Part shown: piece after piece, positions 1-58,519 of the stretch
How the letters are laid out: each line of letters begins with the position of its first letter
How positions within the stretch are numbered: position 1 is the first letter of the stretch
NCBI GenBank assembly: GCA_964344105.1
Contig: CAYFMD010000003.1
Coordinates: forward strand, 8,066-72,065
From: Candidatus Woesearchaeota archaeon
GTDB taxonomy: Archaea; Nanobdellota; Nanobdellia; Pacearchaeales; GW2011-AR1
Length of the DNA stretch: 64,000 nucleotides
Direction: 5' to 3'
Program-made: the position numbers and the translations under genes
The notes under the pieces: model-generated
Database searches by the model: none
What the model was told of the DNA's origin: nothing
What the model saw: the letters and a program-made list of their open reading frames with translations, nothing else

Positions 1-1520
1 TCATCATCTTTTGTGAAGGTTATTACTGCTTCCCCTTCAATTCCAGGAACCTCTACATTTAGAGGATATTTTTTGTCTAAGAACATTGCTATTGATCCTG
101 GTTGTATTGTAGAGAATATTTCTTTCTTTGTTTCATAGCCTTCTGCTCTTGCTATTACATAACCGTTTCCACATTGAGGGAATGTTTCTGTTAGTGTTGC
201 ATCGCCAGATTCTATTCTGGTTGTTCCTATCCTACAAACTTCGTCGAAGCATTTGTATTCTATTTGTGCTTCAACAGGTTCGAAGTTAGTGTTGAAGGTT
301 GATACTGAGATTTCTGTGTTCTTGTATCTGCATAGTTCGCTTGCTGTGTTTGCTATGTTAGATCCAGGTATTGGTTCTCTTGGTCTGTTTTTGTTTATGT
401 AGACAACAACAGGGAATTGGAAAACTCCGTCTGGAGTGTGCATTTGTATTAGGACTGGATATGCTAGGTCGTAGACAAAATGATATGGAACGTAACAGAA
501 TCCTAATAGCCCTAATCCTTCTTGAGTTCCTATAGGATCTGCGATTAATAGTCCTCCATCGTTTGGCCAGACTTCCATTTTTGTAGGCCAGTTCCTAGAG
601 AAGTGGAAATTTACCGGGACATCTACATTTTGTCCTATGTCATGGATGAAATATTCATTTTCTTGTTTGCTTAGATCGTAGTAGTCTCCTTTTATTTTTG
701 TGAAAGGTACGTTGGCTTCTAATGCCATTGTTAGATTTGCCCTTACTTCTTCTACATTCCATATTGATGGGCTGCATTGTATTTCTACTCCATCTACCGG
801 AGCGTATAGTCTTAGTATATCTACCCCATAATTTTCTAGGAACATTGATTCCTTGAAATCGTTATAGATATCTAGAGCTAGTTCGTGGAATTTTCCTAAG
901 CTAGATTGTACGTCGTTTGAATGACTCTTTCCTGTCCAAGATTGCTCGCCTCTTTTAATTTCAATTGAATGTGAGACATCAACATCAATTCTGTTTTCTC
1001 TTATGTTTGTTTCTACTTCTATCTCTCTTCCTACTGCTATTTCGAATCCTTCATTTGCAAATCTTGAGAAGTCACATTGTAATATTCTTTGTTCTAGGAA
1101 TTTATCTAATTCCTCCTCCATTGTATCTGTTGTTGGAACTTGTTCTTTTACAAGGTTATTTCCAGAAATGTAATACCAATAAGGTATTGGAATTCCTACA
1201 AAGTCTAGATAGTTAGAGAATGGCATATGTTCTGAACCTGGGTTGAAATCTGGGCCTTCGATGTATCCTCCCTGTTGACCTAATATGTTGGCTGCTATTT
1301 GTGTTTCTAATTCAATACAGCCTAAGTAATATTGATAGACTGGTTCTAGCTCTCCTGGAGGTCCTCCGAAAGATAGATTGCCTCTAAATACGAAGAATAA
1401 GACTATGATTCCTACAATTACTATTGCTAGAATAATGAATACTGTGGCTTGCGCCTTTTTATCACGCTCTTTAGGGATCATTCTTTCTCTTGTATAATCT
1501 TTTATGTTATTTAAACCCAT
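1..1520 (-). CDS. secreted pilin-like protein with N-terminal class III (prepilin-type) signal peptide. The start codon is at 1518-1520 (or an internal ATG at 1479-1481) and the C-terminus runs off the window edge. It is a paralog of the 29401, 36623 and 37622 genes.
   Basis: Reverse-complement translation from the ATG at 1520 gives MGLNNIKDYTRERMIPKERDKKAQATVFIILAIVIVGIIVLFFVF...LGQQGGYIEGP...PIPYWYY. A basic stretch is followed by A|Q and a long hydrophobic helix, with the same QGGY and aromatic motifs as the other paralogs. The reading frame stays open to position 1 and is absent from the ORF track only because it has no in-window stop. Confidence 0.5.
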   Translation of the reverse strand, partial: MGLNNIKDYTRERMIPKERDKKAQATVFIILAIVIVGIIVLFFVFRGNLSFGGPPGELEPVYQYYLGCIELETQIAANILGQQGGYIEGPDFNPGSEHMPFSNYLDFVGIPIPYWYYISGNNLVKEQVPTTDTMEEELDKFLEQRILQCDFSRFANEGFEIAVGREIEVETNIRENRIDVDVSHSIEIKRGEQSWTGKSHSNDVQSSLGKFHELALDIYNDFKESMFLENYGVDILRLYAPVDGVEIQCSPSIWNVEEVRANLTMALEANVPFTKIKGDYYDLSKQENEYFIHDIGQNVDVPVNFHFSRNWPTKMEVWPNDGGLLIADPIGTQEGLGLLGFCYVPYHFVYDLAYPVLIQMHTPDGVFQFPVVVYINKNRPREPIPGSNIANTASELCRYKNTEISVSTFNTNFEPVEAQIEYKCFDEVCRIGTTRIESGDATLTETFPQCGNGYVIARAEGYETKKEIFSTIQPGSIAMFLDKKYPLNVEVPGIEGEAVITFTKDD

Positions 1521-5783: not shown

Positions 5784-6245
5784 TTAGTTAACTAGTGGTT
5801 CAAATCTTTTATAGGATGTATTGCCAATTTCTGGTATGTAACACCAGTCTTTAATGCCTTTTTCTGGTTCTTTTTTTAGTCTTAAATTATGTTTGGCTGC
5901 AGCAGTGTCTATCCATGAGTAAACTTGTTCTCCTGTGTCTGTTTCAAAGCTAGGAAAATTGAATGAGTAATCGTATATAGTTGGGTAGTCTTCTTGCCCT
6001 AGTCTATGTATTGGAATTCTGACTAAACTTATTGTTGAGTTGTCTTTTGTGATCCCATAGGGAGTTTTGAATTCCACTATTGCTGAGTCATAGGTAATTA
6101 GTTCTGAAAGATTTCTGACTATTGTTTCTGGAGACCACCATATGGAACTAAGAATTGTAAAATATCTATGAGTATGGTGTGGTGGTCCATCTCCTGTTTT
6201 AGCTCTTGTTGAATTCCCTATGCCTTCTTCAAAATTTCCGTTCAT
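5784..6245 (-). CDS. hypothetical protein (153 aa)
   Basis: This ORF is coupled by an ATGA overlap to the upstream ORF 6242-6916. Confidence 0.3.
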   Translation of the reverse strand: MNGNFEEGIGNSTRAKTGDGPPHHTHRYFTILSSIWWSPETIVRNLSELITYDSAIVEFKTPYGITKDNSTISLVRIPIHRLGQEDYPTIYDYSFNFPSFETDTGEQVYSWIDTAAAKHNLRLKKEPEKGIKDWCYIPEIGNTSYKRFEPLVN

Positions 6246-11464: not shown

Positions 11465-12436
11465 ATGATAGTTGGAATTGAGACTACTGCACACACCTTT
11501 GGTGTTGGAATAGTTAATGATGGAGAGATCGTTGCTAATAAGAAGGATGCTTATACTACTGAGAGTGGTGGAATTATTCCAATGGATGCAGCTGCGCACC
11601 ATAGAGATTGTGCAGATAGGGTTTGGGATGAAGCTTTGGAAGAGGCTGGAATTTCTGCAGAGGATGTTGAAGCTATTGCTGTTAGTCAGGCGCCTGGATT
11701 GCCGCCTTGTTTGGCTGAAGGAATGAAGTTTGCTAAAAAGAAGGCTAAAGAACTTGGAGTTCCTTTAGTGCCTGTTAATCATTGTGTTGCTCATTTAGAG
11801 ATTGGTAAGAGTGTTGGAGCCACAGATCCTGTTATGTTGTATGCTTCTGGAGCTAATACTCAGATAATCGCTTATGCCGCTGGAAAGTACAGGGTTTTTG
11901 GAGAGACATTAGATACTGGAATTGGAAATTTTATTGATACTTTTGCTAGGCATATCGGTTTAGGATTTCCTGGAGGCCCTAAGATTCAGAAGTTGGCTGA
12001 AGGTGGAGAGTATATTGAAGTTCCTTATACAATAAAGGGAATGGATGTTGCTTTTTCTGGTTTGTTGACTAAGCTTAAACAGTTAAAGGAAAAGGGCGAG
12101 AAGGATGAGGATTTGGCTTTTAGCTTACAGGAGAGTGCTTTTGCAACATTAGTTGAAGCTGCAGAAAGGGCGTTGGCACATACTGGAAAGAATGAATTGT
12201 TGTTAGGTGGAGGGGTTGGATGTAATGCTAGATTGCAGGAAATGTGTAGGAAAATGTGCGAGGAGCGAGGTGCTAAGTTCTTTGTCCCAGGTTTTGGTTT
12301 GTTAGTTGATAATGGTGCTATGATTGCTTATTTGGGTGAGATAATGTTTAAGTCTGGAATTAAGGTTGAGGATGTAGACTCATTAGATATAGATTCTAGG
12401 CAGAGAACTGATATGGTTGATGTTAAGTGGAAGTAA
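11465..12436 (+). CDS. kae1: tRNA N6-adenosine threonylcarbamoyltransferase Kae1
   Basis: It contains IVGIETTAHTFGVGIV, VNHCVAHLE and GGGVGCNARL. Confidence 0.9.
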   Translation: MIVGIETTAHTFGVGIVNDGEIVANKKDAYTTESGGIIPMDAAAHHRDCADRVWDEALEEAGISAEDVEAIAVSQAPGLPPCLAEGMKFAKKKAKELGVPLVPVNHCVAHLEIGKSVGATDPVMLYASGANTQIIAYAAGKYRVFGETLDTGIGNFIDTFARHIGLGFPGGPKIQKLAEGGEYIEVPYTIKGMDVAFSGLLTKLKQLKEKGEKDEDLAFSLQESAFATLVEAAERALAHTGKNELLLGGGVGCNARLQEMCRKMCEERGAKFFVPGFGLLVDNGAMIAYLGEIMFKSGIKVEDVDSLDIDSRQRTDMVDVKWK

Positions 12437-29400: not shown

Positions 29401-30156
29401 TTAATATCTATTTAGGAATTCGAAGACATATGGTTGTTCCATTGTTCGATTTTCTAAGATCATGACTAATGTGGTATCTTCTTCGAAGGCTATGAAATCT
29501 ACGTATAGTTGTCTATCTCTGGCTAGTTCAGTTATACAGTTTATGCAAATTAGGTTTGGATTTTCCTTATGAGAATCTGTTATGAAAGTTGCTACTTCTA
29601 TGATCTCTTCTAATGAGGAGTTAAGGGTTACAGGATGTTGATTTAGGTTGAAGTTTACTGTGTTTCCATTGCTTTCTATTATTACAGGTAATTCTGTTTC
29701 AAAAGTTAGTGATGTTGATTTTATTTTTGCCTTAGTTTGTGATGGCTCGTATTTTAGTTCTAGATTTTGAAAGTCTATTTGTGATATGCATTTTTCTAGG
29801 TTGGTATCTACATAACTGGCTAGCTCATTTTCTATTGTTTCTTTGAATGGTTGAGTGATAATTCCTTGATCGTAGTAGTATGGAACGAAGGCCCATTGCA
29901 TGTCTAAATGGTTTGTTGGTCTGTTAAAATATCCTCCTTGAATTCCGATTCTAATTAATGCATCTTTTGAGTTTTCTTCTAGACAATCTCTTATGAAATT
30001 TTGTACATTGTTAACTGATGGTTGAAGTCCTTGCTGATCAAAGTATTCTTTGCCTCTGTCTTCTGTTGTATTTCTTACAAAGAAAAATAGAACTATCCCT
30101 ATTACTATCACAATAGCTAATATGATTAGAACTGTTGTCTGTCCTCTTTTTTGCAT
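29401..30156 (-). CDS. pilin-like protein with class III signal peptide (paralog family member)
   Basis: It begins MQKRGQTTVLIILAIVIVIGIVLFFF and carries GIQGGY, PYYYDQ and C..C/CxxC motifs shared with 37622-38383. Confidence 0.55.
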   Translation of the reverse strand: MQKRGQTTVLIILAIVIVIGIVLFFFVRNTTEDRGKEYFDQQGLQPSVNNVQNFIRDCLEENSKDALIRIGIQGGYFNRPTNHLDMQWAFVPYYYDQGIITQPFKETIENELASYVDTNLEKCISQIDFQNLELKYEPSQTKAKIKSTSLTFETELPVIIESNGNTVNFNLNQHPVTLNSSLEEIIEVATFITDSHKENPNLICINCITELARDRQLYVDFIAFEEDTTLVMILENRTMEQPYVFEFLNRY

Positions 30157-33846: not shown

Positions 33847-36633
33847 TTATCTTACTAGTCCTTTTTTTCTGTCTCTTTTGTATCTCATCTGGCCTGTTCT
33901 ACCGAAGTATCTTGGTGAGTTCTTTTGGTATCTATATTGGGTTGTTTGAGTGGGAGTGTCTCTTCTTGTTGTGGGTGTTTGAGTAATTTGAGTGTTTTGA
34001 GGGGTTGAGGGATTTACGATTCTTTGTATGTATCTTGGATCATTTACAGTTCCTTGTATTGTTGGATCTATCCCACTAGTTGTGGCTACAACATTCCAAG
34101 TTCCTGGATGGAATACTCTTGATCCTGAAGTGTCATAAACTCTATTTGTAGAAGGACCTCCTAGGCTATCTAATATACTAGGCATTGCAGTGTGTACTAT
34201 TGGTGCTAGGTCTGGATTGATGATATGTGTCTGTCCGTTAACTGTTAGTTGGTATAGTCCAGATCCTCCCTCGTAACTTATGGTTCTTAGATCTCCTCCG
34301 TAAGAAGTTATTGAATTTCTTAGGAATTGAACAGCTCGATCTGCTTCTCTTACTGCACTGTCTCTAACTTCTAAGATTGATTGGCCCCTATTCAGTAATC
34401 CTGAAACGCTTCTTGTTAATTCAGAAGTTCCTGGAGATGCTATAGCTCCTGCACCTATGTCTACCATGTTTCCAATTATTTCTTCAGTTGCTTTTCCAGG
34501 GGTTCCTGATATGTCTATCGGTTTTCCTATTGTAGATTGTAACCTTTCCGATAAACTATCTAGTGCAGGAAGGCCCTCATAATAAATTTTACTTGCCTTC
34601 TTTCCTGCTGCTTCTTGCCCTACCCTTCCTGAAGATGAATAGGTAGTTAGATCAATGTCAATTGCATAATCTGAATCTGCAAGTCTTGCGTAGAATTTGG
34701 CTTTGTCATCTGGATCTCCTGAGTTATATAGTTTTAATAATTCACCATGCTCTACTCTTTCAACTTGGGTATTTACAGTCCCAACACTGTATTGGGTTCC
34801 TCCTTCAAATAGGTTTGCGAAAAATCCATCTTCTCTAGAAACTTGCCCAAATAATCCTGTTCCTCCAAATGTTACGGTATCAGATCCAGTCCTAGTTATT
34901 CTGGGAGCTCCGTAATTGTTTGAGGATATGCTGAACTGGTTTCCCCCATTGTCTGAGGTTATTGATCCTATGCTGTAAAAATTTCCAAAGTTAGTTGTTG
35001 ATGCAGTTTTTTTGTCTATAGAAACTCCTGCTGGAGATCCTCTGATTATTATTTCATCTCCATTGTATACTTTCCCTCCATTTATTCTTAGTTCTCCAAT
35101 ATTTCCATTTAGTTCTGCTTGCATGAAGCCTTGTTGGTATCTTCCTTTTTGTAATGTTGAAGAACTTATTCTATCTGTTAATGAATTTACTTGTCCTGCT
35201 AGTTGTGTACTTAACTCAGAAGTTATTTTTCCTTGTTCTGTTATTTGTGATATTGTTCCTCCTATTTGTTCTATCTCTTGAGATGATATTGCTGATGATA
35301 ATGCAGAATAAAGCTCGCTTTCAGGTGCTATTTGTAATTGTTCCTGTAATAAGCTTTCAATTAAGGGAGATGCAGTGCTCGCTAGTTGAAATCCTTCTAA
35401 GACTGAGAGTTCTGATTTATCTTTTTCAAGTAATGGTATTACTTGCTTGTAGCGGTCTACTTTTTGTTTTAATCCCTCTACACTATCTATTGCAGTTTTA
35501 GCAGCATCTGTTTCTAAGTCTCCTTGCAAGATATCAACAATTCCTCTAGCATTATCAAAAGTTCCTCTTTCAACACTTGATTCGAAAGTTTGTAAGATAT
35601 CATCATAAAGACTTCTTCCTTTTTGGTTCATAAATAGGAATCCTTTCTTTCCATCTTTTCCTATAAAATCAGGGTCGTATACTAGAATGTTTTCATCTCC
35701 CAAATCTCCTATTGCTTTTTCAAAAGTATCTCTTGATGAGAAGAATTTTGTATCTTCTCCAGTGAAGAATTGATGTTTATCTCTTTCTAGGTAAGCATGT
35801 GATAATGTGTCTATTTTTCCATCTTCATTGAAAGTTACTGTTGCAGGTTTGCTTTCTCCTTCTCTTTGATATGTACTTAACTTTGTTCCATCAGGTGATG
35901 CAAATCTTGACGCTGTTTCTGGATCTTCAGTAGCTAGTGATATTTTTGTTTTTTCAGAAGTTGAATCTATTGTTATATCTCCTCTTCCGTTCCATTTTCC
36001 AGACATTGGATCATCATAATCTGGTACCCTTTCTTCATTTAGCCTTACAAATTGATTTGTATCTGGGTCGAAGAAATACCCTCTTTGATTATCGGCTACA
36101 TTTAAGGTTACTGAACCATCTTTTTTCTTCATAATTAGTGAATGGCCATTCTCTGTTTTTTCATAAGTGACTTCAGTTATTGGGTTATCTGGGTTTTGTT
36201 GATTGTACAATTCTATATCGCTTCCTCTGAAATATGTTTTTGAATTCCCGAAAACACTTCCACTTCCAGGTCTTGTATTCTCATCGAATCCGGTCATTTT
36301 TACATTTCCATATTCTTCTCCATATTTTTTCATGAATTCAGATCTTTTTTCTGGATCTAAGTGTTCCCAAACTGATTGTTTTTTTGATTGGGTTGATTCA
36401 GCCTCCCAGTTTCTCCAGAAGTCTCCATTAATTTCATCTATTAGTGATTGTTGTTGTTCAGGCGTTAGTCTTTCAATATTGTCTGTTAGGATTGAAAGAT
36501 CATGGGTGTCTCTAAATCTATCAAGCTCTGTTTGAAATTGTTCATCTGTTAGTGGGTTTTCTTGTGATAAAACTAGGCTTATGGATAGAATGAATAGTAT
36601 GCTGATTACAGGTAGTATTTTTTTATAGTTCAT
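33847..36633 (-). CDS. large secreted protein (928 aa) with basic C-terminal tail
   Basis: It has a signal peptide MNYKKILPVISILFILSISLVLSQ. It overlaps the upstream pilin-like gene by 11 nt. It ends RYKRDRKKGLVR. Confidence 0.5.
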   Translation of the reverse strand: MNYKKILPVISILFILSISLVLSQENPLTDEQFQTELDRFRDTHDLSILTDNIERLTPEQQQSLIDEINGDFWRNWEAESTQSKKQSVWEHLDPEKRSEFMKKYGEEYGNVKMTGFDENTRPGSGSVFGNSKTYFRGSDIELYNQQNPDNPITEVTYEKTENGHSLIMKKKDGSVTLNVADNQRGYFFDPDTNQFVRLNEERVPDYDDPMSGKWNGRGDITIDSTSEKTKISLATEDPETASRFASPDGTKLSTYQREGESKPATVTFNEDGKIDTLSHAYLERDKHQFFTGEDTKFFSSRDTFEKAIGDLGDENILVYDPDFIGKDGKKGFLFMNQKGRSLYDDILQTFESSVERGTFDNARGIVDILQGDLETDAAKTAIDSVEGLKQKVDRYKQVIPLLEKDKSELSVLEGFQLASTASPLIESLLQEQLQIAPESELYSALSSAISSQEIEQIGGTISQITEQGKITSELSTQLAGQVNSLTDRISSSTLQKGRYQQGFMQAELNGNIGELRINGGKVYNGDEIIIRGSPAGVSIDKKTASTTNFGNFYSIGSITSDNGGNQFSISSNNYGAPRITRTGSDTVTFGGTGLFGQVSREDGFFANLFEGGTQYSVGTVNTQVERVEHGELLKLYNSGDPDDKAKFYARLADSDYAIDIDLTTYSSSGRVGQEAAGKKASKIYYEGLPALDSLSERLQSTIGKPIDISGTPGKATEEIIGNMVDIGAGAIASPGTSELTRSVSGLLNRGQSILEVRDSAVREADRAVQFLRNSITSYGGDLRTISYEGGSGLYQLTVNGQTHIINPDLAPIVHTAMPSILDSLGGPSTNRVYDTSGSRVFHPGTWNVVATTSGIDPTIQGTVNDPRYIQRIVNPSTPQNTQITQTPTTRRDTPTQTTQYRYQKNSPRYFGRTGQMRYKRDRKKGLVR

Positions 36634-37453
36634 TTGGTGGAAGTGTTATATCTTTAATTGAAGATTCAGATTCCGGAGATGGGATGAATATTACTTCATT
36701 TGTTCTATCTAAGCTAGCCTCTCTTACTTCTAAGAAGTTGAATGATCTAGGATAGGTGTCTGTTTTTTTAGATGATATTATTATGCTGATTATTTCTTCG
36801 TCGAAATTACTTATTTCAAAGTTTACATCATAAAGATCGGTTATATCTGATAAACAGTCAAGACAAACGGCATTTTGATTACTTATTAAGTATAGTTCTG
36901 ATGCTGAAATTAGATCATTTAGTTGAGAATCAATTTTATCATCACTTAGTTTTATGGTTGTTGAATCTTCTGCTTTTGAAATTGATAATGTTGTTGCTTG
37001 TTCTATGTATACAGAGTCTTGTTCAATATAAGGTAGTGAGTATATTTCTATCGCCTCTATGGTGTAATCGGGGAATCTTCCTCTAGTTTCACTTATGCAT
37101 ATTTGTGTATTTTCATCAATTATTAGCCCAAGATCAAGTTCAGTCACTTCTCTATTTGGAATCACTACATTATCATTGTACCTATATATTGGCATAAACA
37201 AGCCTACGTCACTTAGGTATGGCACGTGAGGTTCTTTTGAATATCCTCCTTGAGCTGAAACAAATTCTATTGAGTCTATGTATACTTGATTCATGCATTC
37301 TTCTGTGAATTGTTTAATGTTTTCAGACTCTTTATCAAATTCAGTTGAACCTAAATTACCATTATTTCCTAGTGTGAAAAATAGAATTATTGCTACTAGT
37401 GCTATGACTATTGCTAGGATTATAAGAATGGTAACTTGCCCCTTTTTCTTCAT
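36623..37453 (-). CDS. pilin-like protein with class III signal peptide (paralog family member)
   Basis: It begins MKKKGQVTILIILAIVIALVAIILFF and contains AQGGY and CLDCL motifs. Confidence 0.5.
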   Translation of the reverse strand: MKKKGQVTILIILAIVIALVAIILFFTLGNNGNLGSTEFDKESENIKQFTEECMNQVYIDSIEFVSAQGGYSKEPHVPYLSDVGLFMPIYRYNDNVVIPNREVTELDLGLIIDENTQICISETRGRFPDYTIEAIEIYSLPYIEQDSVYIEQATTLSISKAEDSTTIKLSDDKIDSQLNDLISASELYLISNQNAVCLDCLSDITDLYDVNFEISNFDEEIISIIISSKKTDTYPRSFNFLEVREASLDRTNEVIFIPSPESESSIKDITLPPNEL

Positions 37454-37496
37454 GTTTATTATTAGTTTAGAACGTATTTAAGGGTTTAGTGATCTT

Positions 37497-37625
37497 AATT
37501 TTTCACTAACATCCTTTTAACCCTTCTCACAATCTCACTTACAAGCCTTAACCCTCCCACCCACCCTAAGTAGTGAAAGTGAGAATGTTCGACCACCCTC
37601 TATTAAGAGGATGGTGAAAAATTAG
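37497..37625 (-). repeat. conserved ~125-bp intergenic element, copy A (leader/promoter of pilin-like gene 36623-37453)
   Basis: It is about 88% identical to 52938-53066. Both copies share ctaagtagtgaaagtgaga and a C-tract ccctcccacccaccc, which on the minus-strand sense reads GGGTGGGTGGGAGGG. Confidence 0.6.
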
Positions 37626-38383
37626 TATTTGTTTAGAAATTGAAAGACGTAGGGATCTTGGTCTTCGAATGATTTTGATATAACTACTAATGTACTTGTG
37701 TCTTCTTCAGACTCTAAAAAATCAACAAAAAGATTTTTTCCATCAGCCATTTCTGCTACACAACTTACGCATAGGTTTTCTGGATCTTCCCTATGTGTTT
37801 CTGCAATGAATGTAGCTATTTCTATTGCATCGTTTAATGGACTAGGTATTTCTACTGGGTGATTTTCCAAAGTTAGAGTTTCAGTTAGACCTTCTTTAGA
37901 TATTTGGATATTTAGATTTGTATTAAATTCAATTGATCCCTGATTTATTTTTGCAGTTGATTGCGAATTCTTATATTCTAAAGATAGTTCGCTGTTTCTT
38001 ATTTGACTTAAACAGAAATCTATATTGTCATCAAGGTAGTTTGCTAGTTCAGATTCTATCCTTTGATTTGATGGTTGAAGGATTGTTGGTTGATCGTAGT
38101 AGTATGGTATGAATGCTATTCCTATATCTTCTACTTTTGCTGGTTGATTGTAGTAGCCTCCCTGAATTCCTATTACTATGTTAGCATCTTCTGCTATGGT
38201 CTTTAAGCATTCTAATATTGATGATTGGACAACTGTTGCTTGAGATGTTGCTCCAATTTTTGAGAAAGCATTTTCAATATTTGATGATGAAGACTCATTG
38301 TTCAGGAAAGAGAAGATTAGGATTCCTACGATTACAACTACTGCTAGAATTATTAGAATTGTAACTTGTGCTCTTTTTTGCAT
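37622..38383 (-). CDS. pilin-like protein with class III signal peptide (paralog family member)
   Basis: It begins MQKRAQVTILIILAVVVIVGILIF and contains GIQGGYYNQP, PYYYDQ, CLSQI and CVSCV. Confidence 0.55.
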   Translation of the reverse strand: MQKRAQVTILIILAVVVIVGILIFSFLNNESSSSNIENAFSKIGATSQATVVQSSILECLKTIAEDANIVIGIQGGYYNQPAKVEDIGIAFIPYYYDQPTILQPSNQRIESELANYLDDNIDFCLSQIRNSELSLEYKNSQSTAKINQGSIEFNTNLNIQISKEGLTETLTLENHPVEIPSPLNDAIEIATFIAETHREDPENLCVSCVAEMADGKNLFVDFLESEEDTSTLVVISKSFEDQDPYVFQFLNKY

Positions 38384-42326: not shown

Positions 42327-43544
<1,218 letters not shown>

Positions 43545-45811: not shown

Positions 45812-47962
45812 CTATTTCTTTGGTTCACCTAGTTTTGCAAGTAGTGCTATTAATGTTACAGAGTCTATTAGATTATGATTAACTATTCCTTCCATTTTCT
45901 TTGCAGTTCTTTCTCTTTTTTGCCTTGGAGTTAATGGTTTTCTACGTCTTCTTTTTTCTGGAACATCTTCTCCAATCCATTCTTGGTATGTTCTTGGGAC
46001 TTCTGCTCCTGGCAGGTCGTCGCCTCTATCATATCCGAATACAACTTTCTCAACTGTTTTTAATTTTTTATCCGCTAGATCCTTGAATCTTGCCTTTGAA
46101 GGAATTAAAAGATCTATATGATCCCCATTTAGTTTTTCTCTTAGGGTTGTTCTTCTATCTCCATTTAATGAAAGTCCATTGTGTCTTGCCCTGAATCCTA
46201 GCCTTGGTATGTCAAAAGCATTTCCGTTGTAGGTTAAGGATAATCTTCCATCAATCATCTCTAAGAAGTATTCTATCATTGGTTTTTCTTCTGAAGGGTC
46301 TCTAGCTAATAATACTCCCGGTACAACTTTTTGTCCATCGAATGTTGCGTAGCTTATGCTCACTATTGGATCTATGTATCTTAGTCCTGCTGTTTCTAGA
46401 TCCCATGCAATAATATCACTTTTTCTTAATGCTCTTCCAATCCCTAATGTACTTTTTATTGAATTCAATGTTAGTAGGTCTCTATGTTCTGCTATATAAT
46501 CCGCAAGAGTGTCTGCTCCAATATCTGCTATATCTCTTCTGGTTTCTAAGAAAGGAATTCTTCTTCTATGTCTTACTTTTGTATCTGGGATTGATAAGGG
46601 TACTTCAATGGATTCTGGTTCTTCATAAGAGCCTTCATTAATTTGTTTTGCTCTTCCCACTAATCCGTTTAGCATCCTATTTGTCCAATCATGTCTCATG
46701 TGATTGCTGCTTCTCATTACAAAGCAGGATTCTTGTAGTTCTTGATGTAGCCTTAGTAAATAATCTAGGTTTGGAACTGGATTAAGTCCTGCAGTTAAAT
46801 CAGGCCTTGATTCCAATCTTGTTATAACTGCCTCTAAGTTTCTTCTAACTGTAGATTGATCCATTAATTCAATTCCTGCTTCTCTAATTTGTTCTCTGGC
46901 TGGTTCGTATGTCCAATCGGGTTGTAAGAAGAATGCATATGTTTTTTCAAGTGGATCTTCAGATGCCCATAGGTTAAATGATGTATCTGAGTATCTGTCT
47001 AGGAAATCTTGGAGTCTTGATCCTTTGAATGATCCAAAGTAAGATTTCACTTCAATTGGGCTGTTTCCAACTCTTAAATCACTAAATGCTTTTCTTCCAC
47101 CATTATATGAAAATTCGTTTCTTTCTAGTGATGTTTCTAAATCTCCATCTATTCCATTAATTTTTATTCCGAGTATTGGTGCCCAATGTAGCATGAATGA
47201 AATTAGATTTTCTGCAACTACTGAGGATCTTTTTGACTCTGCTCTACTAAGTGTTACATCTTTTTCATCTAATCCTGCAAGGTCTGCGATTATTCCTCCA
47301 GGCATTCTACTAACGGAGTGATTTGATAGGCATTGTATTTCTCTGTAGACTCTATATTCTTCTGAATCTTTTGGTGCTGATCGTAGTGCTGTTGGACAGA
47401 TGGATCTACCTTGATAGAACCAATCTAATAATCTATCTCCTAAAACTCTCCTGTCAATTTCTCTATGATCTACTTTGTCTGCAATAAATGTGTATGCTGA
47501 AGCATAGGGTCCTGGCATTGATTTTATAAATCTTCTGAAACTTCCGAATCTCTTTCCTGTTGCTGCAGTGTATTCTTTTGGATGTTCTCTTCTGAATGCT
47601 TGCACTCCATATAGTGTTCCTTGGTATGCTTGAGCGATCCTAATATCCTCTTCTGGCCAGAATTCTTTGATAGCTGATTCTATTTGTTCCCTACTGGTCC
47701 AAGTTTCATTTAATCCAAGGTGTCTTCTTAATGCAGGATTATCAATTCTTCCTAGGTGGATGACTCCTAGTTCTTTAAACCATGCTCGAGTAGCCCCGGA
47801 AAGCCGACCTTGTTTCATATCGCTATGATACATCCGGAGAATTTCAGGTTCTGGCGGAACTCTTTTACCTCCTGTTGGCTTTCCGGGACCATAAATTCGG
47901 TAACCTCCATCCAATAGTGGATGGATTTCATATTCTCCTTTTGTGAAGGGCTCTTTAGACAT
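45812..47962 (-). CDS. 716-aa protein with central PD-(D/E)xK-like nuclease motif and C-terminal RNase H-like/DEDD 3'-5' exonuclease-like domain (YprB/PF13482-like)
   Basis: The C-terminal pattern is IIAWDLETAGL ... LTYNGNAFDIPRLGF ... NHNLIDSVTL, an Asp/Glu-Asp-His-Asp arrangement. The central region SDLRVGNSPIEVKSY fits a D..(E)VK PD-(D/E)xK core. There is no P-loop. Its start overlaps the dnaG stop by 8 nt. Confidence 0.45.
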   Translation of the reverse strand: MSKEPFTKGEYEIHPLLDGGYRIYGPGKPTGGKRVPPEPEILRMYHSDMKQGRLSGATRAWFKELGVIHLGRIDNPALRRHLGLNETWTSREQIESAIKEFWPEEDIRIAQAYQGTLYGVQAFRREHPKEYTAATGKRFGSFRRFIKSMPGPYASAYTFIADKVDHREIDRRVLGDRLLDWFYQGRSICPTALRSAPKDSEEYRVYREIQCLSNHSVSRMPGGIIADLAGLDEKDVTLSRAESKRSSVVAENLISFMLHWAPILGIKINGIDGDLETSLERNEFSYNGGRKAFSDLRVGNSPIEVKSYFGSFKGSRLQDFLDRYSDTSFNLWASEDPLEKTYAFFLQPDWTYEPAREQIREAGIELMDQSTVRRNLEAVITRLESRPDLTAGLNPVPNLDYLLRLHQELQESCFVMRSSNHMRHDWTNRMLNGLVGRAKQINEGSYEEPESIEVPLSIPDTKVRHRRRIPFLETRRDIADIGADTLADYIAEHRDLLTLNSIKSTLGIGRALRKSDIIAWDLETAGLRYIDPIVSISYATFDGQKVVPGVLLARDPSEEKPMIEYFLEMIDGRLSLTYNGNAFDIPRLGFRARHNGLSLNGDRRTTLREKLNGDHIDLLIPSKARFKDLADKKLKTVEKVVFGYDRGDDLPGAEVPRTYQEWIGEDVPEKRRRRKPLTPRQKRERTAKKMEGIVNHNLIDSVTLIALLAKLGEPKK

Positions 47963-49670
47963 CTTCTAAATCATCTACTATCTCTTCGATACCTGATAGA
48001 GATCTCCCTTCTCGATGTTTTTCAAAAATTATTTCTGCAGCATCATATGCAGTTATTGTTGCATAGGCAGTTTCCATTAGTCCAAGGGAGATTGGGACTC
48101 TTTCTCCACTTGGGAATAGAATCCTTCTTACCTTGCTCCTGTCTAATCCAGGATATCTTTCCATTATTGCATCAGTAGGATCTGTTTCTGTTTTTTCAAA
48201 AAGTCCTCCAGGTCCCGCAGATATTTGTCCTGCGATTACTAATGAGTATACTGCTCTTCTTTCTCCACTTCTGAATGTATCTACAGTTACTCTTTCTTCA
48301 AATTGAGGTCTAGCTTCTGGGAAGTGTATTAGTCCCTGGAGTAATTTAAATTCAGCCAAGGCTCTGCTGTCCATTCTATCTCCATTTAGATCTCCATAAG
48401 GGATGTTAAATAGAACTGATTCTATTGAATTTCTATCTTGATTCATTCTTCCTGCTAGAGCTCCTACATAAATTCCTCTTAATTCTGAGGGGACATTTTG
48501 GAAATCTGGAGCTATCCTTTGTAGGAATGCAATCCCTCTTTCTGGAACAGTTATATCATCTCCTCTAGCCATACCATCTACATAGAATTCAAATAATGGT
48601 GTAGATCTTGCTATCTCTTCTAAAAATCTTTCTTTTCCATGGTTATGGAAAATATCTGCAGGATCTTGTCCTCCAGAGAATAATGCTATGTCTGTATTTC
48701 CTCTTCCTATTAATTTTGATGATGCCCTTAGTGCAGCTCTTTTTCCAGGATCATCTCCGTCAAATCCTAAAATAACTCTTGTATCTGGAAATCTTCTTCT
48801 TACAATCTCTGCCTGATTATCTGTAAATGCTGTACCACAACTTGCAACTATATTAAAAACTCCGTGTTGGTGTCCTAGTAGCATATCTAGATATCCTTCA
48901 GTTACAATCATTTCTCCAGAACCTCTTATTGCTCTTTGTGCTTCTTGCATTCCATAGAGGATTTTTGATTTGTCATAGATTGGAGATTCATCATCTGTGT
49001 TTACATATTTGGCGGGATCATCAATAATTGTTCTTCCTCCAAAACCTACAAACCTTCCAGTGAAGTCTTTTATTGGGAACATTATTCTTCCTCTAAATGT
49101 ATCGTAGAAATGCCCTGGCTTATCTTTTGCTTCTCTAACAAGTCCTACTTGGGCTAATTTTTTATTTCCATGTCCTGACATTAGGTTTTTTATGTAGTCC
49201 CAACTGTTTGGTGCGAAGCCTACTTTGTAATCTCTTGCGAAATCTATGTCAACATCTCTTTCTCTTAGGTATTTTTCTGATTCTGTAGTGCTTATTAGTT
49301 TCGAATAAATATCTGCTGCTTCGGCAACAATTTGATAGAGCTCATCTTTTCTTGCCCATTGTTGTCTCTCTTCTTCAGAAGATTGTATTTCATGGCCTAC
49401 TCTTGATGCAAGGGTTTGAAATGCTTCGAAAAAGGCTAATCCTTCTCTTTTTTGAACAAATGTGTATGCGTCCCCTCCTTCATTACATGCCCAGCAACGG
49501 TATGTTTGTCTATCTGGGTAGACCACTAATGATGGTTTGTTATCATCATGCCATGGGCATAGTGCTACATAGTTTTTACCTTTTGGAGTTAGAGTTAGAC
49601 TTCCTCCTATGAGGTCAACTAAGTCGACTCTGTCTTTGACTATCTTGAAATCTCCAGAGAGTTCCGCCAT
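47955..49670 (-). CDS. dnaG: bacterial-type DNA primase DnaG (CHC2 zinc-ribbon + TOPRIM)
   Basis: The zinc ribbon is CPWHDDNKPSLVVYPDRQTYRCWACNEGGDAYTFV. The TOPRIM reads MIVTEGYLDMLL...ILGFDGDDPGKRAA. Confidence 0.8.
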   Translation of the reverse strand: MAELSGDFKIVKDRVDLVDLIGGSLTLTPKGKNYVALCPWHDDNKPSLVVYPDRQTYRCWACNEGGDAYTFVQKREGLAFFEAFQTLASRVGHEIQSSEEERQQWARKDELYQIVAEAADIYSKLISTTESEKYLRERDVDIDFARDYKVGFAPNSWDYIKNLMSGHGNKKLAQVGLVREAKDKPGHFYDTFRGRIMFPIKDFTGRFVGFGGRTIIDDPAKYVNTDDESPIYDKSKILYGMQEAQRAIRGSGEMIVTEGYLDMLLGHQHGVFNIVASCGTAFTDNQAEIVRRRFPDTRVILGFDGDDPGKRAALRASSKLIGRGNTDIALFSGGQDPADIFHNHGKERFLEEIARSTPLFEFYVDGMARGDDITVPERGIAFLQRIAPDFQNVPSELRGIYVGALAGRMNQDRNSIESVLFNIPYGDLNGDRMDSRALAEFKLLQGLIHFPEARPQFEERVTVDTFRSGERRAVYSLVIAGQISAGPGGLFEKTETDPTDAIMERYPGLDRSKVRRILFPSGERVPISLGLMETAYATITAYDAAEIIFEKHREGRSLSGIEEIVDDLEDV

Positions 49671-52354: not shown

Positions 52355-52861
52355 TTAAGCGACGGCAGTATCTGCTACACCGCAAAGCTTGTTAGTTTCT
52401 CCAACGATAGCAGCTATTTCTACAACCTTATTTCCTACAAGATCGGCAGTAATTTCTAGAGTTTCTAGCTCGTTAAGTGAAGATGCATCTACAGAATCTG
52501 CAACAACTTCTCCATCAGAAAGTACGCTTATTGCTCTTAAGTCTCCTCCGCCAGGGGTTCTCTTAACTAAAACTCCTGCATCAGTCCATACTCTCTCTAT
52601 AGGATCTGTGTCTATGTCACCGTCATGATCCCACAAACCATTACATGTTTGCTCATTTCCAGCAACATCATTACATGAAACGAATCTTAACTTCTCGATT
52701 TCCAAACCTACTGTGAAACAGTCGCTTTGGCCTCCGATTTCATCGGCTCCTTGTTGAACAGTTCCTTGTACAACTTGCCAAACAATTACTATAGCAGCTA
52801 AAACCAACAAGATTATCAACACTGTTGTGATAATTTGTGATTGTGCTTTTTTATTAAACAT
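52355..52861 (-). CDS. small secreted protein with class III (prepilin-like) signal peptide, Cys/Asp-rich globular part
   Basis: It begins MFNKKAQSQIITTVLIILLVLAAIVIVW. An AGGAGGT SD lies 12 nt upstream. It is preceded by copy B of the conserved element. Confidence 0.5.
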   Translation of the reverse strand: MFNKKAQSQIITTVLIILLVLAAIVIVWQVVQGTVQQGADEIGGQSDCFTVGLEIEKLRFVSCNDVAGNEQTCNGLWDHDGDIDTDPIERVWTDAGVLVKRTPGGGDLRAISVLSDGEVVADSVDASSLNELETLEITADLVGNKVVEIAAIVGETNKLCGVADTAVA

Positions 52862-52937
52862 AATGTCATACCTCCTTTCATGCCTCTTTTATCGTATAAT
52901 GAGTATGGTTTTTTAGTATATAAAGATTCTCTTCGTT

Positions 52938-53066
52938 GATTTTTCAATCATATCCCTTTAACCCTTCTCGCAATCTCGCTTACAAATCTTAACTCTCCCG
53001 CCCACCCTAAGTAGTGAAAGTGAGATTACTCGCCCACCCTCCCTTAAGAAGGTGATTAAAAAATCA
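52938..53066 (-). repeat. conserved ~125-bp intergenic element, copy B (leader/promoter of 52355-52861, containing the stop codon of gltX)
   Basis: It aligns to 37497-37625. The shared core is ccaccctaagtagtgaaagtgaga. Its G-tracts on the sense strand are GGGAGGGTGGG and GGGTGGGCGGG. Confidence 0.6.
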
Positions 53067-54269
53067 GATGTTTTTTTGCAAGTTATCTAGAACTTCTTTC
53101 AGATCTTTCATGGAAATTGTTTTGTCTGCTTCAGATAATCCTCTTTCTTCTACGAATTTCCAGAATGTTTCTGGTTTGTAGCCTTGTTTTTTGAAAGAGG
53201 CTACTGTTGGAAGTTTTGGATCATCCCATGATTTATATTTTCCAGATTCTATGTCTTTTGTGAAACCAGATGCTGACATTGTCATTTCTTTAAGATGTAA
53301 TCTTCCTATGAATTCAACTACTGGAAAGCTTTTTTCTTTCTTAAGTGCTTTATAGATTAGTTTTTGTCTCTCTGAATTATCTTTGTGATCTTTTCCTCTG
53401 ATTATATGTGTCATTCCTAGTTCAATATCATCTACAGTAACAGCTAGGTTCATTAATGGCCATACTCTGTACTTGTTTCCAGTTTTTGGATGTGCTGATT
53501 CGTTTATCCTTGCTAATGGGAAATCTCTCATTGCAGGATTTTTGTTTTTAATATCCGATTTGAATCTTAGTACTGCTTCACCTTCTTTGTAGCCGGGCTC
53601 TATCATTAATGACCATCTTTCTTTTTGTTCTTTAACATCTAGTTTTCTACATGGACATGCTTTGCTTTTTGAAATTAGTTCTTTAAATTTTTCTGGATTG
53701 CAAGTGCAAATATATGCATTAGCTGATTTGATTAGCTTTTCTGCATAATTGTAATAGATTTCTAATCGATCTGATTGGACTATTATATGTACGTTGTTCT
53801 TACATAACCATTTGCTTTCTTGCTCAATCATTTTGTAAGCTGGTTTGTATATGTTTTCTGGATTTGTATCTTCTATCCTCATATAGAACTTTCCATCATA
53901 GTTTTTTGCGTATAGGAAATTAGGTAATAAGGTAATTATGTGTCCAAAGGTTAGTGGTCCACTTGGAGATGGGCCCATTCTTGTTACGACCTTTCCTTTT
54001 TTTAATTTGGGTAGTTCAGGTAAGCCTTCTCTTTCTTTTCGGTAACCAATTATGTGTTCTAATTTTTTCAATTCTTCTTTTTGTTCCTCTAAAGATATGT
54101 TGTTGACTTCATCTAGAACCTCTTGTATTTTTGGAATTGTTTCTTTTATCTTATCTTTCTTAAGTCCTTCATTGAATAAACTGTTAATAACTGGACCTTG
54201 TGATGCTTTTCCAGAATGTTCTATTGCGTTTTTTAGAGTGTAGGCTTTTATTGAATCTTTTTTTACCAT
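53064..54269 (-). CDS. gltX: archaeal-type glutamyl-tRNA synthetase, catalytic core only (401 aa, no anticodon-binding domain)
   Basis: It has an archaeal N-terminal extension (YTLKNAIEHSGKA), a HIGH motif PSPSGPLTFGHI, RIEDTNPE, a Zn-like C.C...C.C, GMTHIIRGKDH and a degenerate KMSKS (MTMSAS). The protein ends about 60 aa after that motif. Confidence 0.7.
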   Translation of the reverse strand: MVKKDSIKAYTLKNAIEHSGKASQGPVINSLFNEGLKKDKIKETIPKIQEVLDEVNNISLEEQKEELKKLEHIIGYRKEREGLPELPKLKKGKVVTRMGPSPSGPLTFGHIITLLPNFLYAKNYDGKFYMRIEDTNPENIYKPAYKMIEQESKWLCKNNVHIIVQSDRLEIYYNYAEKLIKSANAYICTCNPEKFKELISKSKACPCRKLDVKEQKERWSLMIEPGYKEGEAVLRFKSDIKNKNPAMRDFPLARINESAHPKTGNKYRVWPLMNLAVTVDDIELGMTHIIRGKDHKDNSERQKLIYKALKKEKSFPVVEFIGRLHLKEMTMSASGFTKDIESGKYKSWDDPKLPTVASFKKQGYKPETFWKFVEERGLSEADKTISMKDLKEVLDNLQKNI

Positions 54270-57490: not shown

Positions 57491-58519
57491 ATGGAAGAAA
57501 CACCTCATTTTTTGTTTAAAGAGAAACAATTGGAGAAGAATTATAGGGAGTTTGAGAGACTTTGTAATGAGCATATTGGTAAGTATGTTATAGCTTATTC
57601 AATTAAGACAAATGGTTTTGGAGCTTTGATAAATAAGTTGCATGAGCTTGGAAGTAATTTTGAGGTTGCTTCTGAAGAAGAGATAATGAAGACTCCTGTT
57701 AAGGGAAAGATTTTCAATGGTGCTAGTAAAACTGAAGAAGAGTTGAGGATGGCTGTTGATGGTAAGTTTTTGATTAATGTGGATAGTAAGAGTGAGATTG
57801 ATAAGTTAATTAGAGTTTTGGATGGGAATGCTTTTAGTATTAGTTTGAGGGTTAGTTTGGAAGAAGGGAAGTTTGGATTTGATCCTGAAGTTATTAATGA
57901 GATTATTGATTATTGTTTTATGAATAATTTGAAGGTTATTGGATTGTCATTTCATCCTGGAACTCAAAAGAATTTTGATCAGTATCAGGATTATATTGGT
58001 TTGGTTGATAAGACTGTTGAGAAATTTAGTGATAAGATAGATTTGAAATATTTGGATGTTGGCGGAGGGTTTCCTGATAAAATTCAGTTAAGAAATTTGG
58101 GAGTTGGTTTGGAGGATTATATTAAGTTAGTTGCTGATTTGAAGAGATTTGGTGCTAGCATTGTTTTGGAACCTGGGAGGAATTTGGTTGCTGATGCTTT
58201 TGATCTTATTACAAAAGTTAATGTTGTTAAGATGAAAAAAGGAAAGAGATATGCTATTTTAGATGCTGGGATAAATTTATTGAGTAAGATTACTTTGGCT
58301 AGTTATAGGTTTGAGAAGGTTGGAGATAAAGAGGAAGGAGTTGGTGAAAATAAAGATTATATTTTAGCAGGACCTTTATTGTTTGGTAACGATGTTATTG
58401 GGAAGTTTAATGGTAAGTTGAAGGAAGGAGATTTAATTAGAGTTAGTAATGTTGGAGCATATTGTTTTAACCTTGGTTGGGAGATTAGTTATAGGAAGCC
58501 AAGAGTTTTTAGTGAGTGA
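57491..58519 (+). CDS. PLP-dependent decarboxylase, fold-type III (Orn/DAP/Arg decarboxylase family)
   Basis: It contains IAYSIKTNGF (lysine-PLP region), LEPGRNLVADA, GPLLFGNDVI and GAYCFN. Confidence 0.65.
   Translation: MEETPHFLFKEKQLEKNYREFERLCNEHIGKYVIAYSIKTNGFGALINKLHELGSNFEVASEEEIMKTPVKGKIFNGASKTEEELRMAVDGKFLINVDSKSEIDKLIRVLDGNAFSISLRVSLEEGKFGFDPEVINEIIDYCFMNNLKVIGLSFHPGTQKNFDQYQDYIGLVDKTVEKFSDKIDLKYLDVGGGFPDKIQLRNLGVGLEDYIKLVADLKRFGASIVLEPGRNLVADAFDLITKVNVVKMKKGKRYAILDAGINLLSKITLASYRFEKVGDKEEGVGENKDYILAGPLLFGNDVIGKFNGKLKEGDLIRVSNVGAYCFNLGWEISYRKPRVFSE

What the first reader, a model, noticed from the sequence alone, without database searches (positions are those of the whole stretch)
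37497..37625. Conserved ~125-bp non-coding element (copy A) upstream of a pilin-like gene, with G-quadruplex-type tract on the sense strand
The interval 37497-37625 is roughly 88% identical to 52938-53066, about 15 kb away. That is striking conservation for intergenic DNA in an AT-rich genome where flanking intergenic sequence is unrelated. Both copies sit about 35-75 bp upstream of, and in the same orientation as, a gene encoding a class III-signal protein. On the transcribed sense (minus) strand the element begins with the stop codon of the upstream gene, followed by a U-tract and a 9-bp hairpin (CCAUCCUCU-UAAU-AGAGGGUGG, plus-strand 37594-37615). It then carries a fully conserved CUCACUUUCACUACUUAG box and a G3-U-G3-U-G3-A-G3 run (plus-strand C-tract 37552-37566). 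This run is a canonical G-quadruplex motif that would form in the 5' leader RNA or in non-template DNA. Downstream lies a conserved UGAAAAAU box. The element could be a combined terminator/promoter cassette, a cis-regulatory leader (rG4 or protein-binding) co-regulating surface-protein genes, a small RNA, or the footprint of a MITE-like mobile cassette carrying pilin-like genes.
Basis: seen in the sequence. Interest (0 to 1): 0.7.

Follow-up and report, generated by a model that had tools for sequence, protein, structure and literature searches.

The report
Small mobile hairpin repeat in Pacearchaeota
The two conserved ~130-bp spacers are copies of a small hairpin-forming insertion element scattered through two related marine Pacearchaeota (DPANN archaea) genomes. 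They are not a control region specific to pilin genes, although the family does preserve a G-quadruplex-type G tract.

Summary
The repeat is real: window 37487-37621(-) and 52931-53063(-) are 81-83% identical, against 57-59% for their flanks, and there are only these two copies in 64 kb.

Both are insertions. The closest relatives keep the same gene pairs but have only 31-bp and 77-bp spacers, holding just the stop codon and a TATA-like box.

A third full copy (80% identical) lies at an unrelated site in a related genome, between convergent rhomboid and TruB genes. The same 29.7-kb contig carries three shorter hairpins with the same G-rich loop on unrelated stems. Two of them sit in frame inside conserved genes.

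All six have the G-rich strand on the same chromosomal strand.

The element has terminal inverted repeats that read "stop codon + T5-6" inward from both ends, two internal hairpins with compensatory changes, and a GGGNGGGNGGGNGGG core. That core is intact in 4 of 6 copies, and B is one of the two broken ones.

Best reading: a new, lineage-restricted family of non-autonomous palindromic mobile elements (MITE/PATE/RPE-like). No transposase or consistent target duplication was found.

The predicted promoters lie downstream of the element, so the "5' leader / pilin regulator" reading is not supported.

The parts
37487..37621 (-). Copy A: 135-bp insertion between the stop codon of the 253-aa gene and the TATA-like box of the 276-aa gene
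   Evidence: blastn of the empty-site relative L051 against the window leaves exactly 37487-37621 unmatched. Empty site ...GTACTAA|GCCTTAAATACG. CM score 152 bits.
52931..53063 (-). Copy B: about 133-bp insertion between the GluRS-family stop codon (53064-53066) and the TATA-like box of the 168-aa pilin-like gene
   Evidence: Relatives L050 and L068 have ...CTCTAG|GCAATATTTATAAATA / ...CAATAG|AGAATATTTATAAAC with a 77-bp spacer. L009-L011 have about 40 bp. CM score 152.9 bits.
37614..37624 (-). A, left terminal inverted repeat TAATTTTTCAC (upstream stop codon TAA plus T5)
   Evidence: Self-hit in blastn. Helix 1 of the consensus structure.
37496..37506 (-). A, right terminal inverted repeat GTGAAAAATTA (reverse complement TAATTTTTCAC)
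53053..53066 (-). B, left inverted repeat TGATTTTTTAATCA (upstream stop codon TGA plus T6)
52937..52950 (-). B, right inverted repeat TGATTGAAAAATCA (14 bp, one G.U/G.T wobble)
37593..37614 (-). A, hairpin P2 CCAUCCUCU-UAAU-AGAGGGUGG (equivalent in B: 53034-53055)
   Evidence: Kept in A, B and C, with five positions changed on one side only, through G.U pairs that work only on this strand.
37529..37588 (-). A, long hairpin P3 (outer stem ACAUUCUCACUU/AAGUGAGAUUGU, inner stem CUUAG/UUAAG) presenting the G tract as its loop (equivalent in B: 52970-53029)
   Evidence: Two compensatory pairs (A-U vs G-C; C-G vs U-A in copy C). 93% of cells paired against 37-57% in slid controls.
37552..37566 (-). 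A, G tract GGGTGGGTGGGAGGG (canonical G4 motif, G4Hunter 1.67 over 24 nt)
52993..53007 (-). B, G tract GGGTGGGCGGGAGAG (fourth run broken, G4Hunter 1.21)
37475..37481 (-). TATA-like box TTAAATA, centred about 25 nt before the ATG at 37453 (predicts a leaderless mRNA). It is outside the element and present unchanged in the empty-site relative.
   Evidence: Read. Consensus-based inference, no transcript data.
52917..52924 (-). TATA-like box TTTATATA upstream of the 168-aa gene (ATG 52861, GGAGGT Shine-Dalgarno). It is outside the element and aligns with ATTTATAAATA of the relatives.
   Evidence: Read. Inference.
36623..37453 (-). 276-aa gene downstream of A (N-terminus MKKKGQVTILIILAIVIAL..., class III signal-like)
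   Evidence: No Pfam or NCBIfam hit.
52355..52861 (-). 168-aa gene downstream of B, archaellin/type IV pilin N-terminal domain
   Evidence: TIGR02537, 20.5 bits, cut-off 20.

Best explanation
The two spacers are copies of a lineage-restricted family of small (55-135 bp), non-coding, palindromic insertion elements in marine Pacearchaeota. In behaviour it is a non-autonomous mobile repeat, like a MITE, PATE or RPE.

Anatomy of the full-length form (A, B, and C in a relative):
- Terminal inverted repeats TRATTTTTYA.../...TRAAAAAYYA. Read inward from either end, these give a stop codon followed by an oligo-T run.
- A 5' hairpin (P2).
- A long hairpin (P3) whose loop is the G tract GGGNGGGNGGGNGGG.
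- Shorter relatives (D, E, F) keep only a hairpin with the G-tract loop, on unrelated stems.

Shown:
- Insertion relative to orthologous empty sites.
- Copies at non-homologous sites, including in-frame intragenic ones.
- The inverted repeats and the conserved pairing.
- The same-strand orientation of all six copies.

Inferred:
- Copies are made by an enzyme supplied in trans. The strand bias and the lack of a consistent target duplication lean towards a strand-specific single-stranded-DNA mechanism (IS200/IS605 or REP-RAYT style) rather than classical cut-and-paste.
- The G-tract hairpin would be the feature that is recognised or structurally required.
- For the neighbouring genes the element is probably near-neutral. 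It landed in the few bases between a stop codon and the next promoter and left both intact. Its T5-6 run right after the stop codon probably terminates upstream transcription, since oligo-T is the archaeal termination signal.
For: Insertion at A. The closest relatives (87.5% nt identity) have ...TACTAA|GCCTTAAATACGTTCTAAACTAATAATAAACATG. The last 31 nt before the ATG match the window at 30 of 31 positions (G->C at window 37484), and exactly 135 bp are absent. A 78% relative also lacks the element there.

Insertion at B. Five relatives (GluRS 79-90% aa identity) keep GluRS followed by the pilin-like gene, with 40-77-bp spacers and no element.

Dispersal.
- Copy C, L054 8060-8189, is 80% identical to A and B (E=4e-17, CM 130 bits). 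It fills the whole spacer between convergent rhomboid and TruB genes.
- D is in a divergent spacer that is only 51 bp in the window.
- E is inside tRNA-guanine transglycosylase (TGT) and F inside an Orn/Arg-decarboxylase-like gene. Both are in frame, in loops where the window protein differs.

None of the six sites is shared between the two genomes. In 696-726 kb of held DNA, every short-loop G4 motif belongs to this family.

Structure: inverted repeats; 93% of cells paired and 4 compensatory pairs, against 37-57% in slid controls.

Orientation: the G-rich strand is on the same strand in the syntenic frame for 6 of 6 copies, regardless of gene direction.

Context: MITEs are already reported to be dense in some DPANN genomes (PMC11602168).
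Against: - No transposase or HUH endonuclease is present in the ~82-kb source contig or the 29.7-kb relative contig (gene tables).
- There is no consistent target-site duplication. A has ACTAA on both sides, but that sequence is also the 3' arm of a small terminal hairpin. B shows none, and C has no empty site available for comparison.
- Only six members from two genomes were seen.
- Exact-word scans of genome, metagenome and viral collections found nothing. The two big collections were scanned with stem words chosen before the conserved core was known.
- C-F come from one low-coverage scaffold that contains N gaps.
- Within the window, both copies are upstream of class III-signal genes, which number at least 5 of roughly 70 genes. 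That is unlikely for random placement.
Confidence: 0.7

Rival explanations
1. Host cis-regulatory element of surface-protein genes. The element would be transcribed as a leader or intercistronic RNA, and its G4 or hairpins would tune expression of the downstream pilin-like gene.
For: Both window copies are in sense orientation directly upstream of class III-signal genes. The naive chance of that is about (5/70)^2. The sense strand folds well (z = -3.95 for A, -2.19 for B). If the upstream gene reads through, the element would lie inside a polycistronic mRNA.
Against: Orthologous pilin-like genes in at least 7 relatives lack the element and keep the same promoter-like sequence. The TATA-like boxes are downstream of the element. 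Members C-F are not at pilin genes, and two are inside unrelated genes. The canonical G4 is lost in B. A T5-6 run at the 5' end should stop read-through.
Confidence: 0.08
2. A free-standing structured small RNA gene that happens to be duplicated or mobile, acting in trans. It could act through the G-rich loop on the sense strand, or through the C-rich loop if transcribed from the other strand (an anti-Shine-Dalgarno-like CCCUCCC).
For: Conserved pairing with compensatory and G.U-only changes on the G-rich strand. The loop is conserved while the stems are replaced in D-F, which is what selection on a presented loop would produce.
Against: No Rfam family matches. No conserved TATA/BRE-like box sits about 25 nt before the 5' end; homology starts at the upstream stop codon. 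Copies inside coding regions are in frame. The 3' third is not conserved in C. Closely related genomes lack the element entirely.
Confidence: 0.1
3. A domesticated bidirectional stop/terminator-insulator module, kept because it uncouples tightly packed neighbouring genes. A selfish origin is possible, but the element would now be selected by the host.
For: Both ends read T(A/G)A plus T4-6 inward. In C the right end supplies or abuts the TGA stop of TruB while the left end follows the rhomboid stop. A, B and C all start within 0-4 nt of a stop codon.
Against: Relatives manage with 31-77-bp spacers and no element. D, E and F are not at gene ends. There is no expression data. Survivorship alone explains why tolerated insertions sit between a stop codon and a promoter in a compact genome.
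Confidence: 0.07
4. A G4-type recombination or diversification initiator next to pilin-like genes, analogous to the Neisseria pilE G4.
For: A canonical G3-N1 G4 lies upstream of a pilin-like gene at A. The pilin-like genes are the most diverged genes of the loci: 73% nt identity against 82% for GluRS, versus L050. Logan assemblies break exactly at the 3' edge of the G tract.
Against: B's G4 is broken. C-F are not pilin-linked. No silent donor copies were seen. Relatives show the same pilin divergence without the element.
Confidence: 0.03

Closest known systems
MITEs of prokaryotes (e.g. Correia elements of Neisseria; archaeal MITEs of Sulfolobus and haloarchaea; the DPANN MITEs counted in PMC11602168)
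   Same: Size about 130 bp. Non-coding. Terminal inverted repeats. Intergenic and dispersed. Presence/absence between close relatives. No transposase of its own.
   Different: No consistent target duplication. Within the family the best-conserved part is an internal loop rather than the termini. All copies lie on one strand. No cognate IS was identified.
IS200/IS605-derived PATEs and REP/RAYT elements (own knowledge of these families; REP background in PMC3733652 and PMC2817692, listed but not read)
   Same: Hairpin-based. No target duplication needed. Strand-specific orientation. Insertion just 3' of a short sequence (here CTAA, CTGA, ATAA).
   Different: REPs are 20-40 nt with conserved stems and a GTAG/CGTC head. 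Here the stems vary and the loop is conserved. No Y1 transposase gene was seen in about 112 kb.
Rickettsia palindromic elements (RPE) and enterobacterial ERIC/RU-1 repeats (intragenic occurrence of RU elements: PMC2759123, listed)
   Same: Imperfect palindromes of 100-150 bp, found both between genes and in frame inside conserved genes, where they add a peptide loop (E and F add PSTLPPS / PHPPTPP-type loops).
   Different: Different domain of life and no sequence relation. The G-tract loop is not a feature of those families.
Neisseria gonorrhoeae pilE G4 (own knowledge)
   Same: A G3-N1-type G4 motif upstream of a pilin gene (copy A).
   Different: Here the motif is part of a dispersed repeat that is also found away from pilin genes. 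No associated sRNA promoter or silent cassettes are known. The resemblance is a lead only.

Membership tests
MITE (non-autonomous DDE-transposon derivative) | Short, non-coding | tested here: met
   133-135 bp. The only ORF through A (35 codons) is stopped in B (read). Peptide search of the open antisense frame found nothing.
MITE (non-autonomous DDE-transposon derivative) | Terminal inverted repeats | tested here: met
   A 11/11 bp, B 14 bp with one wobble, C 8 bp.
MITE (non-autonomous DDE-transposon derivative) | Target-site duplication of fixed length | tested here: inconclusive
   ACTAA flanks A but doubles as a hairpin arm. None is recognisable at B. No empty site is available for C.
MITE (non-autonomous DDE-transposon derivative) | Several copies at non-homologous sites, with empty orthologous sites | tested here: met
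   A, B, C full length and D, E, F core only. Every site is empty in the other genome.
MITE (non-autonomous DDE-transposon derivative) | Autonomous partner with the same ends | not testable with these tools
   None among the genes of the 82-kb and 29.7-kb contigs. The rest of the genomes cannot be searched by DNA.
IS200/IS605-type PATE or REP-like element | Strand-specific orientation | tested here: met
   6 of 6 with the G-rich strand on the same strand of the syntenic frame. Small sample confined to one 21-kb region.
IS200/IS605-type PATE or REP-like element | Fixed tetra- or pentanucleotide 5' of the left end, no duplication | tested here: inconclusive
   CTAA (A), CTGA (B), ATAA+TTTA (C). 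Three sites only.
IS200/IS605-type PATE or REP-like element | Y1/HUH transposase (TnpA/RAYT) in the genome | not testable with these tools
   Not in the contigs held.
Any Rfam RNA family | Covariance-model score at gathering threshold | tested here: not met
   Only three tRNAs in the window. Best permissive hit over the element is 18.6 bits against a threshold of 53.
Canonical G-quadruplex motif (four G3 runs, short loops) | G3N1-2G3N1-2G3N1-2G3 on the sense strand | tested here: met
   Met in A, D, E and F. Not met in B (GAG) or C (GG). Actual folding is not testable here.
5' leader cis-regulatory RNA of the downstream gene | Lies between the TSS and the start codon, and is conserved at orthologous genes | tested here: not met
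   TATA-like boxes are downstream of the element (prediction only). Orthologous genes in at least 7 relatives lack it.
Diversity-generating retroelement TR/VR pair | Mismatches confined to adenines of one copy; VR inside a gene's 3' end | tested here: not met
   A/B differences are of all types, and the repeat starts after the stop codon.

The most novel reading that the evidence does not exclude
The hairpin-presented G tract is itself the functional determinant of a previously undescribed, strand-specific way of spreading small DNA hairpins in DPANN archaea. It would be a G4 or hairpin on single-stranded DNA that is recognised or processed during replication. It can land in frame inside essential genes, and next to pilin-like genes it may stimulate local recombination.

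The evidence does not exclude this. The G3 runs are kept while linkers and stems change, all six copies share a strand, and no conventional transposase or target duplication was seen.
Probability: 0.12. Interest if true: 0.75.

Novelty: new member of a known kind. Interest (0 to 1): 0.4.

Why it matters
It corrects a tempting misreading: conserved "regulatory" DNA in front of two surface-protein genes is really a selfish repeat.

It also documents recent mobile-element activity in very small, compact DPANN genomes, including tolerated in-frame insertions into housekeeping enzymes.

If the G-tract loop proves to be required for spread, the family would be a compact natural system for studying G4 or hairpin recognition on single-stranded DNA in archaea. 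It is also a practical warning that such elements break short-read assemblies.

Tried and rejected
- Rfam at gathering and at permissive thresholds: nothing.
- Exact-word scans.
  - CTCACTTTCACTACTTAGGG in genome contigs and metagenome contigs: 0 hits.
  - AGATTGNGAGAAGGGTTAAA in genome contigs: 5 hits. ATTGNGAGAAGGGTTAAA in viral contigs: 6 hits. In all of these only the word itself matches, so they are chance hits.
  - Core words in viral contigs: 0 hits.
That is the main gap in this analysis.
- blastn against phage and plasmid collections: nothing relevant.
- Covariance model of A/B/C over 421 kb of relatives and 86 kb of source-strain loci: only A, B, C and a weak hit that led to D.
- Extra flanks of the source contig (L070, L073) and one more relative (L075): no further copies.
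- DGR template/variable-repeat idea: rejected on the mismatch pattern.
- Small-ORF idea: rejected, because B has a stop.
- Stems copied from the local target: a weak resemblance at F only, none at D, and A, B and C share stems. Rejected.
- Logan contig breaks as a sign of extra copies: rejected. The two contigs of one sample overlap by only 4 nt at the G tract, which indicates a coverage or read-quality break rather than a repeat branch.

Full report

Yes. On the minus strand, 37495-37621 and 52936-53062 align at 83.5% over 127 nt (E=2.5e-34). The adjoining 130 nt on either side reach only 57-59% in the same kind of alignment.

The invariant 24-mer occurs twice in the window and never in shuffles. 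One correction applies: copy B reads GGGTGGGCGGGAGAG, so the four-run G4 motif is present in A only.

**2. Organism and setting**

The GluRS-family gene next to copy B has hundreds of homologues labelled Pacearchaeota or Nanoarchaeota. The window is part of an 82.8-kb contig from project PRJEB17505. GC content is about 35%.

The gene downstream of B carries the archaellin/type IV pilin N-terminal domain (TIGR02537, just above its cut-off). The genes around A have class III-signal-like N-termini but match no family.

**3. Both copies are insertions**

- Locus A. Two assemblies of the nearest relative (87.5% nt identity) read ...AAGTACTAA|GCCTTAAATACGTTCTAAACTAATAATAAACATG. That is a 31-bp spacer that matches the window's last 31 bp before the ATG at all but one position (G->C at window 37484). 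BLAST leaves exactly window 37487-37621 (135 bp) unmatched. A 78% relative also lacks the element there.
- Locus B. The arrangement GluRS followed by the pilin-like gene is conserved in L009, L010, L011, L050 and L068 (GluRS 79-90% aa identity), with 40-77-bp spacers and no element. The stop codon and the TATA-like box of the relatives align with the sequences immediately left and right of the element. The inserted segment is therefore 52931-53063.

In both cases the element sits in the few bases between a stop codon and the next gene's TATA-like box and leaves both intact. The predicted promoters (TTAAATA 37475-37481, centred about 25 nt before the ATG; TTTATATA 52917-52924) are thus downstream of the element. 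This is a consensus-based inference, since there are no transcript data.

**4. The family is dispersed**

A related genome (about 78% nt identity) is represented by a 29.7-kb scaffold held as L054 and L068. It has neither A nor B, but it carries four other members.

- C (L054 8060-8189) is 80% identical to A and B (E=4e-17; 130 bits with the model built from A, B and C). It occupies the whole spacer between convergent rhomboid and TruB genes. Its left end follows the rhomboid stop. Its right inverted repeat contains the TGA stop of a full-length TruB.
- D (L068 12346-12405) is a 12-bp-stem hairpin, TTTTTGTGACAA...TTGTCACAAAAA. It presents CTTAGGGTGGGTGGGAGGGT, identical to A over 20 nt, on an unrelated stem. 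It lies in a divergent spacer that is only 51 bp in the window.
- E (L054 6787-6842; GGGAGGGCGGGAGGG) and F (L068 about 6031-6085; GGGGGGGTGGGCGGG) are hairpins of the same design inside the tRNA-guanine transglycosylase (TGT) gene and an Orn/Arg-decarboxylase-like gene. They are antisense and in frame, and encode Pro-rich loops where the window proteins have different, hairpin-free sequence.

None of the six sites is shared between the two genomes. Closer relatives of the window (85-90% GluRS identity, about 45 kb held) and a 77% relative (L075) have none. In 696-726 kb of held DNA, every short-loop four-run G motif belongs to this family.

**5. Anatomy**

- A, B and C share terminal inverted repeats: A TAATTTTTCAC/GTGAAAAATTA, B TGATTTTTTAATCA/TGATTGAAAAATCA, C TTTTTCAC/GTGAAAA. 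Read inward from either end, these give a stop codon followed by T4-6.
- RNAalifold gives a closing stem, hairpin P2, and a long hairpin P3 with the G tract as its loop.
- On that structure 93% of cells pair, against 37-57% when partners are slid. Four pairs change on both sides. P2 changes at five positions on one side only, through G.U pairs that work only on the G-rich strand.
- With three sequences this is suggestive, not proof. It fits either RNA or single-stranded DNA of that strand.
- The G-rich strand folds better than its complement in every copy, partly for trivial G.U reasons.
- The G3 runs are kept in A, D, E and F while the linkers differ (T,T,A / A,C,A / G,T,C). B and C are each one substitution away. 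The G tract is therefore the family's most conserved feature, more so than the stems or the termini.

**6. Orientation**

In the common syntenic frame all six copies have the G-rich strand on the same DNA strand, whatever the direction of the adjacent or host genes. A, B and C are sense to the upstream gene, E and F are antisense to their host gene, and D lies between divergent genes. All-same orientation has a chance of about 3% (1/32). All copies lie within one 21-kb syntenic region, so the bias could reflect replication direction.

**7. Mechanism**

The behaviour is that of a non-autonomous mobile repeat. Which enzyme moves it is unknown, because no transposase-like gene lies in the roughly 112 kb held.

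A classical MITE would need a fixed target duplication. A is flanked by ACTAA, but that pentamer is also the 3' arm of a small terminal hairpin. B shows nothing convincing.

The strand bias, the hairpin-centred conservation and the short purine-ending 5' flank (CTAA, CTGA, ATAA) lean towards an IS200/IS605- or REP-like single-strand mechanism. This is an inference from six copies.

The consequences for the neighbouring genes are also inferred. The oligo-T run directly after the stop codon should terminate archaeal transcription of the upstream gene, and the downstream promoter is untouched.

**8.

- A 5' leader or rG4 regulator of pilin-like genes does not fit. The promoters lie downstream, orthologous genes lack the element, and four members lie elsewhere.
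- A small RNA gene cannot be excluded, but no promoter-like box precedes it and Rfam has nothing.
- The MITE-like suggestion is the one that holds, except that the element does not carry the genes.
- One point stays open. Within the window, both copies are upstream of class III-signal genes, which make up at least 5 of roughly 70 genes. I attribute this to tolerance of insertions near fast-evolving surface-protein genes, but a link cannot be ruled out.

**9. Known relatives and novelty**

MITEs are known in archaea and are reported to be dense in some DPANN genomes (PMC11602168). In-frame palindromic insertions recall Rickettsia RPEs and enterobacterial RU/ERIC elements. Strand-specific hairpin elements recall IS200/IS605 PATEs and REPs.

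This is a new family of that general kind. Its unusual trait is a conserved G4-type loop on variable stems. I could not find it in any public collection that I could still search. The main limitation is that the two large DNA collections were scanned with stem words before the conserved core was recognised.

Noticed in passing
L068 12218-12250 and 12302-12335 (relative scaffold ERZ24794640 NODE_13890): A 34-bp direct duplication of the 5' end of the radical-SAM (ELP3-like) gene, covering the ATG and 11 codons. It brackets a 51-nt piece containing a P2-like TTCTTAAGGGGTGG motif, just before hairpin D. It might be a long target duplication, two successive insertions, or a scaffold artefact, since an N gap lies nearby at 11813-11910.
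   Followed up: partly
L054 6787-6842 and L068 about 6031-6085: G-tract hairpins lie in frame inside the TGT gene and an Orn/Arg-decarboxylase-like gene. They add Pro-rich loops (TKPSTLPPSLEE; TDPHPPTPP) that are absent from the window orthologues (42357-43544 and 57491-58519).
   Followed up: partly
L079 end, L002/L003 start (copy A, about window 37548-37551); L006 start (copy B, 52993): Logan assemblies from several samples break exactly at the 3' edge of the G tract. Two contigs of one sample overlap by only TTAA. That looks like a read-quality or coverage collapse at a G4-prone run rather than a repeat branch.
   Followed up: partly
window 53064-54269 (-): The 'GluRS' is a 401-aa protein with only the class I catalytic domain (PF00749). 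This short form is conserved across hundreds of Pacearchaeota/Nanoarchaeota sequences and is labelled 'glutamate--tRNA ligase family protein'.
   Followed up: no
window 1-1481, 29401-30156, 33847-38383, 52355-52861 (all -): At least five ORFs have class III-signal-like N-termini. They include a run of large unannotated genes (928, 276, 253 aa) with no family match, which is probably a surface-appendage locus.
   Followed up: no
window about 47955-49670 (L004 13192-14907): A bacterial-type DnaG primase (Zn ribbon, DNAG_N, Toprim domains) in this archaeon, next to an RNase_H_2/PolB-exo-like 716-aa gene.
   Followed up: no
window 1-64000: GC skew is positive in almost every 2-kb bin, so the cumulative skew rises steadily. 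The repeat's G-rich strand lies on the opposite (minus) strand.
   Followed up: no
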